DNA from: a phage
Reading direction: 5' to 3' (one strand)
Length of the DNA: 64,000 bases
Sequence record: PZ445451.1
The notes under the pieces were generated by a model, which had not been told where the DNA came from, made no database searches, and was given only the letters and a program-made list of their open reading frames with translations. The position numbers were made by a program, and so were the translations under genes. Of this stretch, positions 9,040 to 39,394 are shown piece after piece. Within the stretch, counting starts at the first letter, position 1. Every line of letters begins with the position of its first letter.

Positions 9040-12000
9040 CTAATGACAACTGGCCCATGAGTTACCAACATCGTACCCAGCAGTGAGAGGTACATTAAGA
9101 TTGTAATACTCACCAGCTTTATTAACAGCGATAGATGCTAATTCTCCAGCACGACTGTAGGCTGTAAACCAACCACCTTTCGGAGATTCATGTACGTTCG
9201 CCCAAATCTTGCCAGTACGTTTCTCTTCCTCTTCTTTCCAGGCATTAACTTTATCCAAACATTCTTTATCAATTTTCTTTTGTTCTTCTGGATCATCAAC
9301 TTGAGTCCAACCTAAAGATTCTTTAGAGAACCATTTAAAATGCACCAGATCACGAGTTACTTCAAGTTGTGCTTCATCGTGATATGCAATCATTTGTTGA
9401 ACGAATGACTTATTTTTCCAGTCATCAACAAAAAAGTCAACAGCTAATCCTTCTTCTTCGATAAGATCGTCGTAGATAACCATTGCTCTTTTTGCACAAA
9501 TAACACCACCACTCTGGAACAGAGAGTTAAGTATTGCGTGTGCAGATCGTGTAGGTACTTTTCTACCATCAATACCGAGAATGTATTTCTTACCTGTTTT
9601 AACCCAAAAGTCATGCAGACGTTCTTTAAGAAGCGCAAGAGGTTTTGCAGCTTCCCAGAAAGCATCGTATACAAGCTGTCCTGTATACATATCACTACCT
9701 ATAGTTTTTGCTACTTTTGCAGCTTGAGCACCATAAGTAATACCATACTTAACAGATTTAGCAGGGCTTCGTTCAAACTTACGACCAATAGTGTCAGAAA
9801 TACGTCGAGCCATCATTGTATGAACATCATTAGGTTTTTCCAATAATAGAGCATTACAATATTCGTGTGGTTCCTGCTCGTACCGCCAACAATTCCCTGT
9901 AATCGTGATGCAGTCTTTCTGACGCATAACCCATGTACCGAGTTCTGTTTGTGGACACCAAACATCTTCTACACCCCATTCTTCAATAGTCAGACTTTGA
10001 ACAGGGATGTGAGAGCGGTTAGCCAACGTTGCCACTTTTACTTTCTGGTCTTTCGTATTGAAGGCTACAGAAATATTACCCCCATGAACCAGGTATGAGG
10101 CAGTTAAGGCTGCTTCAAAAAGTTCTCCTGGGTTCTGCGCCCAGCGCCAAACAGGTTTTTGTTTATGTTTGTGCCAGTAACCATCCGCAATCAAAAAACC
10201 TTCCAAGAAAGCCACACGCTCGGCATGAGACATATTAACTACACGTTCTACCCACGGAACATCCCATTTACCTTGTTGAACAGAAGTTAAACTATTTACT
10301 TGATCTTGTTCCATGTTAAATGGAGCATTACAAATAATGTTATCTCCTGTGCAAAGCTCGGCAGTTGTTCTGACTTTAGGCACATAAGTATTCCCTGTAC
10401 TACGAGTATTAACATACCAACGGTGATCTGCTGTTGCACGATAAGTATGGGATTTTCCTTTAATCTCAAACGTCTTACTATTTTTATAGAAGACCTTACC
10501 TTTTACTTTAGTCCATTCTTTAAGTCCTGTTTCTGGGTTATATCCTAAGATTTCATCCCCTTCTTGTAGATCGTGATAACCAACCCAACCTTTACGGGTT
10601 AGTGCTTGTGCATCCATAGGTACACAGTAGTGTGATTCTATTTTTGCCTCAAGAGAATCAAAGTCATAACCAATTTGGAAGTATTTTGGAACTTCTACAC
10701 CAAATAAGTTACGCATTTCATATCCGTACAGAGATGTTACACGTGGGATATTTGCTACTAACCTATGTTTCATACGAGATGTAGCTGCATCACACGTTGC
10801 AGCAGGAGTTGGTATACGACCATCAGCCCTTACTGCTGCCAGATAACCTTTATCGTAATCCTCTTCATCTTCTTCCCAATCAGCACCACCACCTAGAATA
10901 GAGTTCCTACGGTGTTTATACGTAAGATACTGCACAATCTGCGTAGCATAAGGAAACTTTTCACCCAGTGCTTCCAAGTTAGGACAAATATCTTTCTCTT
11001 GCCCTTTTGTAAAGGAAGGGTTCGTAAGCACTTTAACACCACGACCTTTAGCTTTAGCAATACGATCTCTTAGTTTCCATTCCAAAGTTTCTGGTGTGCA
11101 CTCCAGATGATCACATCTGTCCTGGCAGAAGTTAGATGCTAACGTTTGATCAACATAGTCACGAATAGCTTTCTCCATTTGTGCTTCATCTTTCTTAATC
11201 TTAGTGCCAGATTTAAGAGTGATATCTTTATCTTTGTATTCAGATGGACTCCAACCTAAACCAACTAACCAGTTTTTAATATGTGTAGTGTCGTCTAAAG
11301 TAGCAGGTACTGTAGGATCACAAATAGGTTCTTCTGCTGGAATAGGGAGTTTAAACTCTTTACCTAAAGCAAATAACCACCAACCATCTTCTTTTTGTAC
11401 AAGTTCACCAGAATGTTTCTCTGCAAACTTTATCATGTTACTTGAAGGTTCACCATTCTTTTTAAACTGTAGTTTAGGTGGAATGAATGATTTCAAATAA
11501 CCTTTGGTAGCAGGTTTAGGAGGTAGCACAGGTTCTGCCTCTAAACGACATGCTTCCATTCGAGCATCCAGATCACGAATATTATCTTCTGCTTGTTTCA
11601 TATTGAAAGCAAAGCCACGGTGCTCTTGACGTGTAATAATATCAGCTACACGTTGTTCTAAGTTAAATGGTTCAGACCACTTATTATAATCACCCCACTC
11701 TTCCATCAAATAACGGAACACTGCGGTGTTAGCTTTGTTATCGTAAATACAGTAATACAGCATATCTGCTGCAAATGTTTTAAATCTTTCAGTTTCAGGG
11801 ATGTTTTTTCTAAAATCAATTTTAACATCCCCTCCAGCTTTCTTAGATAACTCTGCCAGACTATGACCACCGAAGCGATCAGGGTTTAGTGTCTTACTTA
11901 AGATCATAGTATCACAAATTTCAATGTTACTATTACCCCAAGTATTGTACTTAATACTGTAGTTGAGTTTAAAAAATAATTTAATTGCCAGTAAGTCGAA

Positions 12001-12354
12001 GTTAATGATGTTGTGTCCAACTACTTTGGTAATTTTATAGTTTGAATTACCTTTAAATTTACCTGTTCCATTTACAAAATCAGGAAAATCTTTAAGAGGG
12101 AAATGGGTATATTCTAAATGCTCATATTCCTCCAATCGGTATTCATACTTTCCGTCAGTCTCAATATACGGACGACCATCGAAAAGATATTTATCACCAT
12201 CATGGAAAGCAATAATCTCTCCAGTATCATGACTTTCGCACACAATACAGTGCATTGCAAAACTATCTTTTAAACGATATGGACTTGCCAAGTAATCTAC
12301 ACTTTCGTCATTAAGCAAGTTGTTACTTTCAATGTCGAAAGTAAAAGCTCCCAT
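9040..12354 (-). CDS. DNA polymerase family A with 3'-5' exonuclease domain, interrupted by an intein
   Basis: Motif A GYDFDSLEAKIESHY, motif B RSPAKSVKYGITYG, motif C AYHDE; AAGGAGG RBS; 245-residue insert between motifs A and B. Confidence 0.9.
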   Translation of the reverse strand: MGAFTFDIESNNLLNDESVDYLASPYRLKDSFAMHCIVCESHDTGEIIAFHDGDKYLFDGRPYIETDGKYEYRLEEYEHLEYTHFPLKDFPDFVNGTGKFKGNSNYKITKVVGHNIINFDLLAIKLFFKLNYSIKYNTWGNSNIEICDTMILSKTLNPDRFGGHSLAELSKKAGGDVKIDFRKNIPETERFKTFAADMLYYCIYDNKANTAVFRYLMEEWGDYNKWSEPFNLEQRVADIITRQEHRGFAFNMKQAEDNIRDLDARMEACRLEAEPVLPPKPATKGYLKSFIPPKLQFKKNGEPSSNMIKFAEKHSGELVQKEDGWWLFALGKEFKLPIPAEEPICDPTVPATLDDTTHIKNWLVGLGWSPSEYKDKDITLKSGTKIKKDEAQMEKAIRDYVDQTLASNFCQDRCDHLECTPETLEWKLRDRIAKAKGRGVKVLTNPSFTKGQEKDICPNLEALGEKFPYATQIVQYLTYKHRRNSILGGGADWEEDEEDYDKGYLAAVRADGRIPTPAATCDAATSRMKHRLVANIPRVTSLYGYEMRNLFGVEVPKYFQIGYDFDSLEAKIESHYCVPMDAQALTRKGWVGYHDLQEGDEILGYNPETGLKEWTKVKGKVFYKNSKTFEIKGKSHTYRATADHRWYVNTRSTGNTYVPKVRTTAELCTGDNIICNAPFNMEQDQVNSLTSVQQGKWDVPWVERVVNMSHAERVAFLEGFLIADGYWHKHKQKPVWRWAQNPGELFEAALTASYLVHGGNISVAFNTKDQKVKVATLANRSHIPVQSLTIEEWGVEDVWCPQTELGTWVMRQKDCITITGNCWRYEQEPHEYCNALLLEKPNDVHTMMARRISDTIGRKFERSPAKSVKYGITYGAQAAKVAKTIGSDMYTGQLVYDAFWEAAKPLALLKERLHDFWVKTGKKYILGIDGRKVPTRSAHAILNSLFQSGGVICAKRAMVIYDDLIEEEGLAVDFFVDDWKNKSFVQQMIAYHDEAQLEVTRDLVHFKWFSKESLGWTQVDDPEEQKKIDKECLDKVNAWKEEEEKRTGKIWANVHESPKGGWFTAYSRAGELASIAVNKAGEYYNLNVPLTAGYDVGNSWASCH
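9892..10626 (-). mobile_element. Intein in DNA polymerase with LAGLIDADG-like homing-endonuclease motif
   Basis: Starts with Cys right after motif A, TADH block B, LEGFLIADGY motif, ends ...ITITGN followed by Cys; removal restores normal A-to-B spacing. Confidence 0.65.
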
Positions 12355-35617: not shown

Positions 35618-38392
35618 TTAGTTTATCAGTTTATTTATGTCTGGTAAAAGATTTATTTCACCTAAGAAATCACCTTCACCTTCCTCTAGCCAACTCTCAT
35701 ATGCTTGTGCATGATTATAGTTACCATCAAAAGAATCTGCAACAAATTTTTCTACAGTTTTTCGAGATGTGCCAGCGCCAAATACACCAAGTTTAATACT
35801 ATTGATCGGTAAAGTGGTGCTTGTTGGTACTTTCTCTGTTGCAACACGGTTGATATCTATAATCTCCTGTACGGTTGTGTTCCATTGTAAGCATTTAACA
35901 CAACGGGTATGCGCTACATACAGTAGGTTTCGCTCTGCCTCTTCCAGTCCTACCCATTCACCAGTTTTTTTATCATAATTGGAAGGAAAATCATTAGCAA
36001 CAATAACCTGATCCCACTCCAAACCTTTAGACTTGTGTGCTGTAGTCAATGTGACTTTTGCTGTAGGAGAATTTCTATGCGTTCTAAGTGTATGTGCTAT
36101 AGTGTTTGCCTTGCCAGAAACTACGATGTTTAACAAGCGTTTAGCATCTGGATCAGCCTCTGCACACTCAACAAATTCATTCCAGTCTGCGTAAGGTAAT
36201 ACAGTTTCATGTTTTACTTTCTCAATATCTCCTCTCCGAAGAGCATTAACACTATCTACCATAGAGATAAAATCCCTGGTATCTACGTTAATAATAATTT
36301 CTTCCCCATCTGCAATACGATCCATTGCCTCCATAAGCAAGGTTAAATTCTTGCGAAAGATGATAGTGTAAGGTTTTGTATAGTCTACAACATCTGATTT
36401 GTAGCTACCTACTACAGTATCAAAGCCTTTACCAACCAAAGGATGACGCAAAGGTTCTTTATCGCTTAAAATCATATTGGCAATGTTTGCCACTTTGGGG
36501 CCAAAACGGAAGCAAGCAGTTAATGGAAGCTCTGCCCCATACTTAGCTGTTTCAATCATCATATTAGAGCTACCTCTAAATTGATAAATGCAGTTGTGGC
36601 TAAGAATTTCATTGCCAAAGAAGTTAGCAGTATCCTCTACTTCAATATCATAATAGATACCCTCACTATCTACAATGTCCACAATCTCTTCTGCCGTTAC
36701 AGTATCACCATCTTTTACCAACACAGACATGCCTTTAAACAAACCCGCTGCCGGAATTAAGTTATATTTGGCACTGTTCACAGAGGACATGCATTCTTTT
36801 AAAGATGCAAACGGAACTATTTCAAGGATCTTTTGTGCAAAACTCAATGCTTCACGATAAGAATTGAAATATTTACGTACACGGTAACGACCTTCCAATT
36901 TAGCAGCACTTACGCTTACACCTGCTTTAATCAGTGAAGAATAGATCGGCATTTCACTTTCTGTCCACTCAAAACTAACTTGTGTTCCTTTACAACCTTG
37001 TGCTCGCAAAGTCACTGTTAGCATTTTTCTTTCATCTACTGCACAATTGATGCTGTGCCAGTGTGGATAAGCAAAATGATAATCTTTATCCTCTAAAAGT
37101 TTAAAACCATTTTGTCCGAATTGTTCAAAGATGTTATTGATCCTTTCTTGATTAATGCCGCGTGAACTTGCTTCAAATACACAAGTAGGAATGCCATATT
37201 GTAAACTGTATGCCATTTCTTTTTCCATAGCAGCTTCACGGTTTTCAACAATATCCAACACCCATAATTTCTGTGCTTTTTCAGAACGTGTACGTTGCCC
37301 CAGTTTAGAAAAACCTTCTTTATCATCGAATTTGTTAGTGATCCCTACTCGGAAACCTAAATCTTTCCTCCACATTAGGTATACCACCATCTGATCATCT
37401 TTCAGAACATAGGATGAAGCCCAAATACGATGGTTATGTGTCATATCTAAAGTTTTACCTGTGGCAGTAATAATATTCCTACCTTTTGTACGTGTAGATA
37501 AAGTCTTATTTGTTACTTTTCTAAATGTAATTTTACCATTAGAATAAGACTCTACCTTATCACCGATTTGTAGGTCTTTCATTGTAACCTGACCATTCTC
37601 GGTATTAAGTACCGTGTTTTCCGACACACATTGGAATTCATCGCCCACTACCACAATTTGTTTTGCAGATTTAGCATTTCGCAGAATAGACAAGAATGCA
37701 GGGTTAACATCCTGGAATTCATCACCAAAAATAATGTCATAACCAAGATCAGCACCTGATAACTCAAACAATTTTACATAGGTGTCATGCGTCATCAAAG
37801 TATCTGTGTTAGGATCAATGCGCTCTCGCCACAATTGTTTTGCATACTTAACTACTTCTGTAATTAGTTTGTGTTCGTTAATACCTTTTCTTTTAATATC
37901 TGCAAGATGTACACCAGGGAAATGTTTACGGCTGATAAAAGGATCATCCGAAAATTCAAACTTACCTACGGTTTGCTTGATCATTAAACCAATCATAGCA
38001 CGAGTTAAAAGTGTTTTCCCTCGTTTATCAATAAGATTATTAATCTTAAATTTCTTTGCTATCTCACTACCTGTACCTGCAACGTTAACATACTGTCCTT
38101 CTGGTCGTGACAGTTTTGCACGTAAACGATGATCCAGGAATTGATAGCAAATGGAATGCAATGTACGGCATTCTACATTTGGTGGCATCTTACGCCGTGC
38201 TTCTTCTGCCATGCTTTTATTGAAAGCTAAGTAAAGAATGCGATCTTCTGTACTGTTAGCCAGCAAATAAAGTGTTGACGTTTTGCCTGATCCAGATTTA
38301 GCTTGGATAGTTAAAAAACGATGGTCTGGAAAAGCCTCCTTAATAGCTGTTTGCTCTTCTGTTGGAGTAAAACTCAACTCTTTCTTAGCCAT
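35618..38392 (-). CDS. UvrD/Rep-family (SF1) DNA helicase interrupted by an intein
   Basis: Walker A AKSGSGKT, motif II IIFGDEFQD, motif III split as VVVGDEFQ / CIYQFRGSS by a 346-residue insert; start set at ATG after AGAGAGG. Confidence 0.85.
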   Translation of the reverse strand: MAKKELSFTPTEEQTAIKEAFPDHRFLTIQAKSGSGKTSTLYLLANSTEDRILYLAFNKSMAEEARRKMPPNVECRTLHSICYQFLDHRLRAKLSRPEGQYVNVAGTGSEIAKKFKINNLIDKRGKTLLTRAMIGLMIKQTVGKFEFSDDPFISRKHFPGVHLADIKRKGINEHKLITEVVKYAKQLWRERIDPNTDTLMTHDTYVKLFELSGADLGYDIIFGDEFQDVNPAFLSILRNAKSAKQIVVVGDEFQCVSENTVLNTENGQVTMKDLQIGDKVESYSNGKITFRKVTNKTLSTRTKGRNIITATGKTLDMTHNHRIWASSYVLKDDQMVVYLMWRKDLGFRVGITNKFDDKEGFSKLGQRTRSEKAQKLWVLDIVENREAAMEKEMAYSLQYGIPTCVFEASSRGINQERINNIFEQFGQNGFKLLEDKDYHFAYPHWHSINCAVDERKMLTVTLRAQGCKGTQVSFEWTESEMPIYSSLIKAGVSVSAAKLEGRYRVRKYFNSYREALSFAQKILEIVPFASLKECMSSVNSAKYNLIPAAGLFKGMSVLVKDGDTVTAEEIVDIVDSEGIYYDIEVEDTANFFGNEILSHNCIYQFRGSSNMMIETAKYGAELPLTACFRFGPKVANIANMILSDKEPLRHPLVGKGFDTVVGSYKSDVVDYTKPYTIIFRKNLTLLMEAMDRIADGEEIIINVDTRDFISMVDSVNALRRGDIEKVKHETVLPYADWNEFVECAEADPDAKRLLNIVVSGKANTIAHTLRTHRNSPTAKVTLTTAHKSKGLEWDQVIVANDFPSNYDKKTGEWVGLEEAERNLLYVAHTRCVKCLQWNTTVQEIIDINRVATEKVPTSTTLPINSIKLGVFGAGTSRKTVEKFVADSFDGNYNHAQAYESWLEEGEGDFLGEINLLPDINKLIN
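36593..37630 (-). mobile_element. Intein in helicase motif III
   Basis: Begins CVSENTVLN, block B THNH, ends YYDIEVEDTANFFGNEILSHN followed by Cys; excision rebuilds canonical GDxxQ-IYxFRG. Confidence 0.65.
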
Positions 38393-38393
38393 T

Positions 38394-38870
38394 TCAACCT
38401 CTCTTAATTTGTTTAACAAGCATAGGAACAAAATCTCGTTTTAAAATTTGTTCAATAATGTGATCAGGTAGCTGTTGGAAATTATAATTAAAAGCTACTG
38501 TCTCACCTTTAGGTGTTTCTACCCGCACATATAACATGTTACGAAGTTTATCCACTTGTGCTGTATATTCTAAACCACGTAATTGATGCATTGCAAACAT
38601 CAAATCATCAGGTTCAGTTTGGAATCTATCACTTGTCTGCATCAAGGATAAGGTAAAAGGTAGATTTTCCCTAAGAGCTACCTTCTTAGGCACTAATGAA
38701 GGGAAATACTCCCCAATAACTTCCTGTGTAAGCTGAATACACTCTTTTTCAAGCTGGTTTTGTTCCTTGAGTTCACAAACACTTTTTTGTAAAGTGTTAA
38801 CCTCTTTTTGCAAGGCTGCTAGTTGAGCATTTAACTTTCTTTTTTGATTACGACCAAAACGTTTAGACAT
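38394..38870 (-). CDS. Hypothetical protein with N-terminal coiled coil
   Basis: 158 aa ORF. Confidence 0.5.
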   Translation of the reverse strand: MSKRFGRNQKRKLNAQLAALQKEVNTLQKSVCELKEQNQLEKECIQLTQEVIGEYFPSLVPKKVALRENLPFTLSLMQTSDRFQTEPDDLMFAMHQLRGLEYTAQVDKLRNMLYVRVETPKGETVAFNYNFQQLPDHIIEQILKRDFVPMLVKQIKRG

Positions 38871-38878
38871 ATTTCCCC

Positions 38879-39394
38879 CTAGTAAAACCCCTTAACAATT
38901 TGTATTAACTCGGCACAACGATTGACCAACTTTTCCTCGTACAATACACGTTGTGGCATATGTTGTATAATATACTCCATTTGCTCATGCCATGTCCACT
39001 TTTCTTTTTTGTCCGGGATAACATCACTAGCACGAGAATTATCTTTTAATGTTTGTATAATCCAATTGCTTGGAAAGTGCTCTCCACCTTTCTTAAATGG
39101 TTTATAGTGGCCTAGAGTGAATTGAGAATCCCCTGTTAGAGCACCCAATTTATTTAGATGGATAATCAAACTACGAAACACGTAGTATTCATAGATGTTA
39201 TCCACCGTATAGCAAGCATAATATTTCAAGATGCCCTTATCTCGCGGATACTTACCAACATCCAGATTGCACCAGTTGACATTTTCTGGATCATAGTGGT
39301 GTTCCTTAAGCCATATTTCTCTTTCATCAAAGTCTGGATATATTACCGCCCTGCTTACAGAGTCAACAAGTGGAGATTGAGCATCAAAAAACAT
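38879..39394 (-). CDS. Hypothetical protein
   Basis: 171 aa ORF. Confidence 0.5.
   Translation of the reverse strand: MFFDAQSPLVDSVSRAVIYPDFDEREIWLKEHHYDPENVNWCNLDVGKYPRDKGILKYYACYTVDNIYEYYVFRSLIIHLNKLGALTGDSQFTLGHYKPFKKGGEHFPSNWIIQTLKDNSRASDVIPDKKEKWTWHEQMEYIIQHMPQRVLYEEKLVNRCAELIQIVKGFY

What the first reader, a model, noticed from the sequence alone, without database searches (positions are those of the whole stretch)
36593..37630. Second intein, splitting helicase motif III of the UvrD-like helicase
A 346-residue insert with canonical ends (Cys start, THNH block B, ...ILSHN followed by Cys) interrupts GDEFQ / CIYQFRGS. Two inteins in two replication proteins of the same phage suggests ongoing intein traffic. 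The central part has no obvious LAGLIDADG or HNH motif by eye, so the endonuclease type is unclear.
Basis: partly seen in the sequence, partly recalled or inferred. Interest (0 to 1): 0.5.

Follow-up and report, generated by a model that had tools for sequence, protein, structure and literature searches.

The report
Mobile helicase intein, unusual endonuclease
The 346-residue insert in this coliphage's UvrD-like helicase is a genuine, recently mobile intein that GenBank already annotates, but its central domain belongs to a large endonuclease family absent from Pfam, NCBIfam, PHROGs and the PDB, and may be a very divergent GIY-YIG nuclease.

Summary
Window 36593..37630 (- strand) encodes a 346-aa in-frame insert (Cys1, T64xxH67, His345-Asn346, then Cys+1). 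It splits helicase motif III, GDEFQ|CIYQFRGS.

The window is Escherichia phage PaulScherrer (MZ501100.1). Its GenBank record already annotates this intein and the DNA polymerase intein, so the intein itself is not new.

Evidence that it is an intein and mobile:
- Intein-less alleles about 98% identical lack exactly these 1038 nt.
- All 22 fixed nucleotide differences between intein-plus and intein-less alleles lie within 27 nt upstream and 51 nt downstream of the insertion point, the pattern co-conversion would leave.
- A Klebsiella phage carries the intein at 93-98% nt identity over its first ~600 nt, while the exteins are about 72% identical.

The central ~200 aa are neither LAGLIDADG nor HNH. 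No Pfam, NCBIfam, PHROG or PDB sequence match was found. An exhaustive profile search still finds 1352 cluster representatives, mostly at the same helicase site.

The parts
35618..38392 (-). Precursor gene: intein-containing UvrD/Rep-like SF1 helicase, 924 aa plus stop. The mature helicase would be 578 aa.
   Evidence: ORF. GenBank CDS bas60_0082. Pfam UvrD-helicase E 8e-12 and UvrD_C E 8e-11.
37631..38392 (-). N-extein (aa 1-254). Ends ...VVVGDEFQ, the first half of helicase motif III.
   Evidence: Translation. Alignment with intein-less alleles.
36593..37630 (-). Intein, 346 aa, class 1 (Cys1 ... His345-Asn346).
37406..37630 (-). Hint N-terminal lobe (intein aa 1-75), carrying block A (Cys1) and block B (T64-H-N-H67).
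   Evidence: Pfam Hint, Hint_2 and Intein_splicing; NCBIfam intein_Nterm. C1 is held in 103/106 and H67 in 107/113 family members. Coordinates checked.
37061..37405 (-). Central lobe 1 (intein aa 76-190), the putative nuclease core. Secondary structure order is beta-beta-alpha-beta-alpha-alpha. Near-invariant residues are Y84, R94, G96, R113, E117, W123, E138, S142 and P148. It is GIY-YIG-like.
36806..37060 (-). Central lobe 2 (intein aa 191-275), an alpha/beta lobe with conserved R250, R252, K/R253 and Y258. Presumed DNA-binding or specificity lobe.
   Evidence: AF2 secondary structure. Conservation. dN/dS 0.15-0.24, and a divergent mosaic patch relative to phage KP2025. The function is inferred.
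36593..36805 (-). Hint C-terminal lobe (intein aa 276-346), carrying blocks F and G and ending ...NFFGNEILSHN.
   Evidence: NCBIfam intein_Cterm 20.1 bits, above its 15.6 cutoff. H345 is held in 96/111 and N346 in 97/111 family members.
35618..36592 (-). C-extein, starting with the Cys+1 codon (36590-36592) and reading CIYQFRGSS..., the second half of motif III, through to the stop codon.
   Evidence: Translation. Intein-less alleles have Ser at this position.
37631..37657 (-). Upstream tract holding 6 of the 22 fixed nucleotide differences between intein-plus and intein-less alleles. Best read as co-conversion.
   Evidence: Comparison of 4 intein-plus and 5 intein-less alleles: fixed differences at gene nt 736-762 only. 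The last 12 nt are shared with intein-plus phage KP2025.
36542..36592 (-). Downstream tract holding 16 of the 22 fixed differences. It includes Ser to Cys at +1, Gln to Ser at +9, and Lys to Ile/Val at +13.
   Evidence: Fixed differences at gene nt 1801-1851 only. The derived states are shared by KP2025 and absent from the intein-less Phapecoctavirus nieznany.

Best explanation
This is a bona fide class-1 intein inserted in motif III of the phage's UvrD/Rep-like helicase.

Splicing (inferred from conserved chemistry, not assayed). The 924-aa precursor should excise itself through:
- an N-S acyl shift at Gln254-Cys1, assisted by block B T64xxH67;
- trans-thioesterification to Cys+1;
- cyclisation of Asn346, assisted by His345;
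- an S-N shift.
The products would be a 578-aa helicase reading GDEFQ-CIYQFRGS and a free 346-aa intein.

Homing (inferred from population signatures). The roughly 200-aa insert between Hint blocks B and F is the homing endonuclease. In a mixed infection it would cut intein-less helicase alleles at or near the motif III coding sequence. Recombinational repair would then copy in the intein plus about 30-50 bp of flank.

Endonuclease type (suggestive). The module is neither LAGLIDADG nor HNH. It is a widespread family not found in the libraries searched, built of two lobes.
- Lobe 1 (aa 76-190) is most likely a very divergent GIY-YIG-type catalytic core. Proposed equivalences to I-TevI are Y84=Y6, G96=G19, R113=R27 and E138=E75. 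Arg94 replaces the second Tyr, and Glu117 replaces His31.
- Lobe 2 (aa 191-275) is most likely the DNA-binding lobe.
This echoes the catalytic-plus-binding layout of GIY-YIG homing endonucleases.
For: Intein:
- In-frame 346-aa ORF with Cys1, TxxH, HN and Cys+1.
- Pfam Intein_splicing, Hint and Hint_2, and NCBIfam intein_Cterm above its cutoff.
- AF2 pLDDT 92.2 and pTM 0.89.
- GenBank annotation.

Mobility:
- The 1038 nt are exactly absent from alleles about 98% identical. About 37 of 56 records at 95% identity or more carry the intein.
- All 22 fixed differences lie within -27 to +51 nt of the junction.
- Between PaulScherrer and Klebsiella phage KP2025, synonymous divergence is saturated in the exteins (about 72% nt identity). 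It is about 0.1 in the first 190 intein codons (93-98% nt identity).
- The derived flank states C+1, S+9 and I/V+13 are shared by both intein-plus lineages.

The central domain is functional:
- 1352 cluster representatives at E<=1e-3 and 122 at E<=1e-30.
- Y84, R94, G96, R113, E117, W123 and E138 are 97-100% conserved, and all are kept in this copy.
- dN/dS in lobe 1 is 0-0.08.
- Free-standing relatives that have lost the splicing residues keep these residues. Four of the six I examined sit 11-48 nt downstream of uninterrupted UvrD-like helicase genes.

GIY-YIG-like:
- The secondary-structure order is beta-beta-alpha-beta-alpha-alpha.
- hhalign gives colinear alignments of about 80 columns to two independent GIY-YIG profiles (P 0.018 and 0.04). 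Only 2/150 and 7/150 column shuffles reach the observed score. Other intein segments score P 0.17-0.74.
Against: - Neither splicing nor DNA cleavage has been measured.
- The GIY-YIG assignment is not statistically secure. No Pfam GIY-YIG hit appears in any of 31 members at E<=1. hhalign probability is only 1-3%, whereas two true GIY-YIG families link at 89.6% with equally shallow profiles.
- The second Tyr of the motif is Arg. The Asn position is not conserved (N in 43%, and E in this copy).
- Differences confined to the junction could also arise from one ancestral recombination event rather than repeated homing.
Confidence: 0.75

Rival explanations
1. It is an intein with an active homing endonuclease, but the central domain is a nuclease of a new or otherwise unrelated fold. 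On this reading the resemblance to GIY-YIG (a small beta-beta-alpha-beta-alpha unit with Tyr, Arg and Glu) is convergent or coincidental.
Confidence: 0.25
2. It is an intein whose central domain no longer acts as, or never was, a nuclease. It could be a DNA-binding, maturase-like or regulatory module. The intein would then persist vertically and spread only by ordinary recombination between co-infecting phages, or with help from a trans-acting endonuclease.
For: No nuclease activity has been shown. There is no significant match to a nuclease family. The phage carries other putative endonuclease genes: the phi92 gp200 homologue at window 38879..39394 is annotated as having an HNH-like fold.
Against: Charged and aromatic residues are near-invariant across 113 divergent members, and dN/dS in lobe 1 is 0-0.08. 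Transfer is recent relative to the divergence of the host gene. The fixed differences hug the insertion point tightly. Free-standing copies keep this domain while losing the splicing residues, which fits a selfish nuclease. The gp200-like gene is present in both intein-plus and intein-less phages and has no Pfam hit.
Confidence: 0.08
3. It is not an intein. The insert would be a lineage-specific accessory domain that stays within the mature helicase.
For: Pfam Intein_splicing scores 33.7 bits, just below its gathering cutoff of 35.8. The original phi92 annotation described '2 discontinuous domains' without naming an intein.
Confidence: 0.01

Closest known systems
The same feature as annotated in GenBank MZ501100.1 (phage PaulScherrer/Bas60; BASEL collection, PMC8594841)
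   Same: Same gene (bas60_0082, 'intein-containing UvrD / Rep family helicase precursor') and same intein. The authors delimited inteins by comparative genomics.
   Different: The annotated mat_peptide is one codon longer because it includes Cys+1. Neither the record nor the paper says anything about the endonuclease type, mobility signatures or family distribution.
Canonical LAGLIDADG inteins (PI-SceI, PI-PfuI, PI-PkoII, TliVMA)
   Same: Class-1 Hint splicing domain, with an endonuclease module inserted between blocks B and F. Insertion is in a conserved catalytic motif of a DNA-metabolism enzyme. Spread is by homing.
Bacterial UvrD-helicase inteins (16 counted in Novikova et al. 2016, PMC4760082)
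   Same: Same kind of host protein: an SF1 UvrD-like helicase.
   Different: That survey does not describe the insertion site or the endonuclease type in the text I searched. I could not test whether those inteins belong to the family found here.
GIY-YIG homing endonucleases (I-TevI) and GIY-YIG repair nucleases (UvrC N-domain, Slx1)
   Different: These enzymes are not known as in-frame intein domains (PMC2677866; preprint 10.1101/2025.01.02.630785). Here the second Tyr is Arg, His31 is Glu and the Asn is not conserved. Sequence similarity is far below that between true GIY-YIG families.
'Fractured genes': split inteins with a free-standing GIY-YIG or Vsr-like endonuclease gene between the halves (Dassa et al. 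2009, PMC2677866)
   Same: An intein associated with a non-LAGLIDADG, non-HNH endonuclease in phage-like DNA-metabolism genes.
   Different: Here the intein is contiguous and the endonuclease module is in frame inside the Hint domain. There is no split and no separate ORF.
HO endonuclease of yeast (a free-standing, intein-derived endonuclease)
   Same: The free-standing relatives found here (P0045, P0054, P0065, P0067) keep Hint remnants plus the central domain but have lost the splicing residues.
   Different: They sit directly downstream of an uninterrupted copy of the presumptive target gene, like phage free-standing homing endonucleases. Their activity is untested.

Membership tests
Intein (class 1, Hint superfamily) | In-frame insertion that is absent from otherwise colinear orthologues | tested here: met
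   Exactly 1038 nt are missing from five alleles about 98% identical. The mature length is 578 aa in both forms.
Intein (class 1, Hint superfamily) | Hint fold | tested here: met
Intein (class 1, Hint superfamily) | Catalytic residues: Cys/Ser1, block B TxxH, C-terminal His-Asn, and a Cys/Ser/Thr nucleophile at +1 | tested here: met
   C1, T64, H67, H345, N346 and C+1 were read directly. They are conserved in the family: C1 103/106, H67 107/113, N346 97/111; +1 is S in 77, C in 17 and T in 2.
Intein (class 1, Hint superfamily) | Curated profile match | tested here: inconclusive
   NCBIfam intein_Cterm scores 20.1 bits, above its 15.6 cutoff. Pfam Intein_splicing scores 33.7 bits against a 35.8 cutoff, and intein_Nterm 17.9 against 24.5.
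Intein (class 1, Hint superfamily) | Protein splicing activity | not testable with these tools
   This needs expression and detection of the ligated helicase and the free intein.
LAGLIDADG homing endonuclease domain | LAGLIDADG motifs and the alpha-beta-beta-alpha-beta-beta-alpha fold | tested here: not met
   No Pfam LAGLIDADG hit in 31 family members. Solved LAGLIDADG inteins align only through their Hint part, over 131-157 residues with TM 0.29 or less.
HNH (beta-beta-alpha-Me) endonuclease domain | HNH motif with conserved His/Asn and the beta-beta-alpha-metal finger | tested here: not met
GIY-YIG nuclease superfamily | Core fold beta1-beta2-alpha1-beta3-alpha2-alpha3 | tested here: inconclusive
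GIY-YIG nuclease superfamily | 'GIY' Tyr in beta1 and 'YIG' Tyr-x-Gly in beta2 | tested here: inconclusive
   Y84 (112/113) and G96 (113/113) are present. The second Tyr is replaced by Arg94 (112/113).
GIY-YIG nuclease superfamily | Catalytic Arg in alpha1 and metal-binding Glu in alpha2 | tested here: inconclusive
   R113 (111/113) and E138 (110/113) sit in the predicted alpha1 and alpha2. hhalign pairs E138 with I-TevI E75 and with the corresponding UvrC Glu. The equivalence rests on non-significant alignments.
GIY-YIG nuclease superfamily | Conserved Asn after alpha2 | tested here: not met
   The candidate position 153 is Asn in only 49/113 members and Glu in this copy.
GIY-YIG nuclease superfamily | Significant sequence-profile similarity to known members | tested here: not met
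   No PF01541 hit at E<=1. hhalign probability is 1-3% (P 0.018-0.04). The I-TevI-like versus UvrC control reaches 89.6% at E 1.9e-6.
Homing (mobile) genetic element | Presence/absence polymorphism, junction-confined flank differences, and greater similarity than the host gene across lineages | tested here: met
   About 37 of 56 close records carry the intein. All 22 fixed differences fall within -27 to +51 nt. Against KP2025, intein dS is about 0.1 while extein dS is saturated.
Homing (mobile) genetic element | Site-specific cleavage of the empty allele, and super-Mendelian inheritance | not testable with these tools
   This needs cleavage assays and phage crosses.

The most novel reading that the evidence does not exclude
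This intein family carries a homing-endonuclease module not described in the libraries or papers I could search: an extremely divergent GIY-YIG-type catalytic lobe plus an alpha/beta DNA-binding lobe, fused in frame inside a contiguous Hint domain. It would be the first GIY-YIG-class endonuclease reported inside a contiguous intein. The module has spread to over a thousand UvrD-like helicase clusters, mostly at motif III and sometimes at other sites, and possibly to at least one phage methyltransferase (a fold-level match only, TMq 0.56). It has also repeatedly left the helicase gene to become a splicing-dead, free-standing endonuclease gene directly downstream of an uninterrupted helicase gene.
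Probability: 0.4. Interest if true: 0.6.

Novelty: new variant of a known kind. Interest (0 to 1): 0.45.

Why it matters
The intein itself is ordinary and already annotated, so the finding as written adds little.

The endonuclease module inside it is the part worth attention. It is abundant: 1352 clusters at 50% identity. It is strongly conserved and confidently modelled. Yet it is absent from Pfam, NCBIfam, PHROGs and the PDB.

If it is an active nuclease, it adds a fifth or sixth type to the short list of intein-associated homing endonucleases. It would also be a new scaffold for sequence-specific DNA cutting.

Contiguous-intein and free-standing forms both occur next to the same target gene. 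That gives a natural system for asking how inteins gain and lose endonucleases.

For phage genomics, the junction-confined differences and the intein-plus/intein-less polymorphism are practical markers of recombination among Justusliebigvirus phages, some of which are studied for therapy.

Tried and rejected
- Word-indexed protein searches, with the whole intein and with an 82-sequence profile of lobe 1, returned only 2 and 7 hits. They could not supply family context or a transitive link to an annotated nuclease. The exhaustive search was what revealed the family.
- The first AF2 run, on a 3-sequence alignment, was unusable (pLDDT 41).
- Profile searches of the PDB with the central domain found nothing meaningful: ElxO at E 0.24 and no hits.
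- PHROGs gave only non-significant hits to the central domain.
- Foldseek against the PDB recovered only Hint-based hits, because the model cannot be trimmed to one domain.
- The afdb50 library was unavailable.
- hhalign against a single I-TevI sequence found nothing.
The UvrC genome scan returned only close enterobacterial relatives, which made a narrow profile.
- I considered a hidden out-of-frame or antisense endonuclease ORF inside the intein, as reported for some actinophage inteins, and rejected it. The only alternative ORFs are 61-79 aa and have no Pfam hit.
- I considered the nearby gp200-like 'HNH-like' gene as a trans-acting helper and rejected it. It is present in both intein-plus and intein-less phages and has no Pfam hit.
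- I considered the helicase accessory-domain reading and rejected it (see rivals).
Full report
**Source and observation**

The window is Escherichia phage PaulScherrer (Bas60, MZ501100.1, genus Justusliebigvirus, phi92-like), record positions 32676-96675 on the same strand.

The finding lies in a minus-strand gene, 35618..38392. GenBank already calls it an 'intein-containing UvrD / Rep family helicase precursor', with an 'intein' mat_peptide at 36590..37630.

- The N-extein ends ...VVVGDEFQ.
- The insert begins at Cys1 (37628-37630), has T64-H-N-H67, and ends ...NFFGNEILSH345-N346 (36593-36598).
- It is followed by Cys+1 and IYQFRGSS.
- The insert is 1038 nt, or 346 aa.

The GenBank feature is one codon longer because it includes Cys+1. 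Alignment with intein-less alleles shows that this residue belongs to the extein. The BASEL paper says its inteins were delimited by comparative genomics (PMC8594841). The existence of the intein is therefore already on record.

**Is it an intein?**

- Pfam finds UvrD-helicase and UvrD_C in the exteins. In the insert it finds only Hint, Hint_2 and Intein_splicing. NCBIfam's intein C-terminal model passes its cutoff.
- A first model from three sequences was useless (pLDDT 41).
- An exhaustive profile search supplied homologues. A 31-sequence alignment then gave a confident model, with pLDDT 92.2 and pTM 0.89.
- Solved LAGLIDADG inteins (PI-PfuI, PI-PkoII, TliVMA, PI-SceI) align only over 131-157 residues, which is the splicing domain.
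- Among 103 family members with both flanks on record, all start with Cys. 83 end in HN and 11 in SN. The +1 residue is Ser in 77, Cys in 17 and Thr in 2.

This is a class-1 intein by every feature that sequence and predicted structure can test. Splicing itself remains untested.

**Comparison with orthologues**

Of 56 phage records at 95% nt identity or more to the gene, about 37 contain the insert. The rest (alia, inny, AV123, KMB37, EC_OE_11, VivaForever and others) match in two pieces that span 1776 bp in the record against the 2814-bp query, which is 1038 bp less.

The intein-less alleles read GDEYQ-SIYQFRGSQ, an uninterrupted SF1 helicase motif III. The more distant Phapecoctavirus orthologue also lacks the insert and reads GDEFQ-SIYQFRGSQ.

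I compared four intein-plus and five intein-less alleles. All 22 fixed nucleotide differences lie within 27 nt upstream and 51 nt downstream of the insertion point. None lies elsewhere in the 1737-nt extein sequence. The fixed differences include Ser to Cys at +1.

This is the pattern expected if the intein arrived together with short donor flanks, that is, by co-conversion.

**Horizontal transfer**

Klebsiella phage KP2025 has the intein at the same site.
- Its exteins are about 72% identical to PaulScherrer at the DNA level, and synonymous sites are saturated.
- The first ~600 nt of the intein are 93-98% identical, with dS about 0.1.
- A divergent patch in lobe 2 (dS about 0.9) shows that the intein is itself a mosaic.
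- KP2025 shares the derived flank states (C+1, S+9, I/V+13) that distinguish intein-plus from intein-less alleles.

The DNA polymerase intein (window 9889..10623) is also present in some Justusliebigvirus genomes and absent from others. It assorts independently of the helicase intein.

**The central domain**

Residues 76 to 275 sit between Hint blocks B and F, where intein endonucleases normally sit.
- No Pfam, NCBIfam, PHROG or PDB sequence profile matches them, either in this copy or in 30 relatives.
- There is no plausible alternative-frame ORF.
- The domain is nevertheless common. The exhaustive search found 1352 cluster representatives at E<=1e-3 and 122 at E<=1e-30.
- Most are embedded in 800-2500 aa UvrD-like helicases at the same site, GDxxQ|SIYxFRG (84-87 of 103).
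- A few sit at other helicase sites, such as DE|CQD in motif II.
- In the viral structure library only two other proteins partly share the overall fold: a helicase (TMq 0.61) and an adenine methyltransferase (TMq 0.56).

The model shows two lobes.

Lobe 1 (aa 76-190)
- It runs beta(81-88), beta(92-98), alpha(111-116), beta(121-128), alpha(131-145), alpha(161-181).
- Its near-invariant residues are Y84, R94, G96, R113, E117, W123, E138, S142 and P148. This copy keeps all of them.
- Its dN/dS among phage alleles is 0-0.08: 7-11 synonymous changes against 0-2 non-synonymous.

Lobe 2 (aa 191-275)
- It is an alpha/beta unit with conserved basic residues.
- Its dN/dS is 0.15-0.24.

**Is lobe 1 a GIY-YIG nuclease?**

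In favour:
- The strand and helix order is that of the GIY-YIG core.
- The conserved residues map onto I-TevI as Y84=Y6, G96=G19, R113=R27, E117=H31 (same i+4 spacing) and E138=E75. I confirmed my I-TevI sequence against 1mk0 and 1ln0.
- hhalign against an I-TevI-like profile and against a UvrC N-domain profile gives colinear alignments of about 80 columns that pair the same motifs. P is 0.018 and 0.04. Only 2/150 and 7/150 column shuffles reach the observed score. The other three intein segments score P 0.17-0.74.

Against:
- The hhalign probabilities are 1-3%. The I-TevI-like and UvrC profiles, equally shallow, recognise each other at 89.6%.
- The second Tyr is Arg, and the Asn position is not conserved.

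I therefore treat 'GIY-YIG-like' as the leading hypothesis, at roughly 55-60%, not as established membership.

The literature I could search lists LAGLIDADG and HNH as the in-frame intein endonucleases. Vsr-like and endonuclease VII-like enzymes appear only as separate, antisense or out-of-frame ORFs. [quoted passage not shown] UvrD inteins as such are known in bacteria (PMC4760082).

**Free-standing relatives**

Several 328-350 aa hits are separate genes. They keep the Hint remnants and all conserved lobe 1 residues. They lack Cys1, the block B His and the terminal Asn.

Four of the six I examined (P0045, P0054, P0065, P0067) start 11-48 nt after the stop codon of an uninterrupted 483-499 aa UvrD-like helicase gene. 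The other two are on short contigs without that context.

A module that persists next to its presumptive target after losing the ability to splice behaves like a selfish endonuclease. This supports a nuclease role for the central domain. It is also interesting as a possible intein-to-free-standing transition.

**Verdict**

The observation and the intein interpretation are correct, and the intein is very probably still mobile. The finding as written is already recorded in GenBank, so it is not a discovery.

What is new is the nature of its endonuclease. It is a large family absent from the libraries searched, two-lobed, neither LAGLIDADG nor HNH, and possibly a highly divergent GIY-YIG enzyme.

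I rate it a new variant of a known kind, of moderate interest. The decisive tests are a splicing assay, a cleavage assay with active-site mutants, phage crosses, and a domain-level structural comparison.

Noticed in passing
L054:3340-4392; L055:4001-5002; L056:2087-3088; L137:3001-4014; L138:1943-2929: Free-standing 328-350 aa genes homologous to the whole intein. They keep the Hint remnants and the conserved central-domain residues but have lost Cys1, the block B His and the terminal Asn. Each lies 11-48 nt downstream of an uninterrupted 483-499 aa UvrD-like helicase gene (in L054, motif III reads GDNFQAIYLFRQA). They look like intein-derived free-standing homing endonucleases sitting beside their target gene.
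   Followed up: partly
window 36590-36592: The GenBank 'intein' mat_peptide (36590..37630, 347 aa) includes the Cys+1 codon. By alignment with intein-less alleles, which have Ser there, that residue is the first C-extein residue. The annotated boundary is therefore one codon too long.
   Followed up: yes
window 9889-10623 (- strand), within DNA polymerase gene 9040-12354: The first intein (245 aa, annotated) is also polymorphic. About 12 of the listed Justusliebigvirus records cover it. Most others match the gene in two pieces covering 78% of it, consistent with lacking the intein. It assorts independently of the helicase intein. Its central part gives only a faint LAGLIDADG_3 hit (E 0.084). 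Some records (phiWec187 and 'Campylobacter phage' A145, A150, C3, A110a) match in two pieces spanning about 3547 bp for a 3313-bp query, which suggests a different, larger insertion. The Phapecoctavirus polymerase hits cover the intein region in a single piece.
   Followed up: partly
P0082, P0086, P0087, P0090 (representative-library proteins); BFVD A0A8S5TZY8: The same central domain occurs in inteins at other sites of UvrD-like helicases, for example ...VDE|CQDLN in motif II. It also occurs in giant multi-intein helicases of up to 2536 aa. One phage adenine DNA methyltransferase partly shares the overall fold (TMq 0.56).
   Followed up: partly
L004 (Klebsiella phage KP2025), gene nt ~1381-1620, equivalent to window ~36770-37010: The intein is a mosaic. 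Against KP2025, the 5' 600 nt and the 3' end are 88-98% identical, but lobe 2 contains a patch at 47-82% identity (dS about 0.9). This implies recombination within the intein, or exchange of the presumed specificity lobe.
   Followed up: partly
phage records MG065639, MG065645, MG065656, MG065689: Records labelled 'Campylobacter phage' with host Campylobacter jejuni are 98.3% identical to this E. coli phage across the helicase and polymerase genes. The host labels look doubtful.
   Followed up: no
OZ035770.1 versus MN850632.1: Two records both assigned to the species Justusliebigvirus alia differ in the helicase intein. OZ035770 has it and MN850632 lacks it. The polymorphism therefore exists within a named species.
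   Followed up: partly
window 38879-39394 (- strand): This 171-aa gene, two genes upstream of the helicase, is the phi92 gp200 homologue. Other records annotate it as 'predicted HNH endonuclease-like fold' or 'HNH endonuclease', but it has no Pfam hit at E<=0.1. It is present in both intein-plus and intein-less phages.
   Followed up: partly
window 38393-38431: The mechanical ORF list extends the helicase ORF to a TTG at 38431, overlapping the upstream gene. The annotated ATG at 38392, preceded in phi92 by an annotated ribosome-binding site, is the more plausible start.
   Followed up: no
tool behaviour (versus 25): The word-indexed protein search returned 2 and 7 relatives. The exhaustive profile search found 1352. 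A low count from the indexed search should not be read as rarity for this family.
   Followed up: yes
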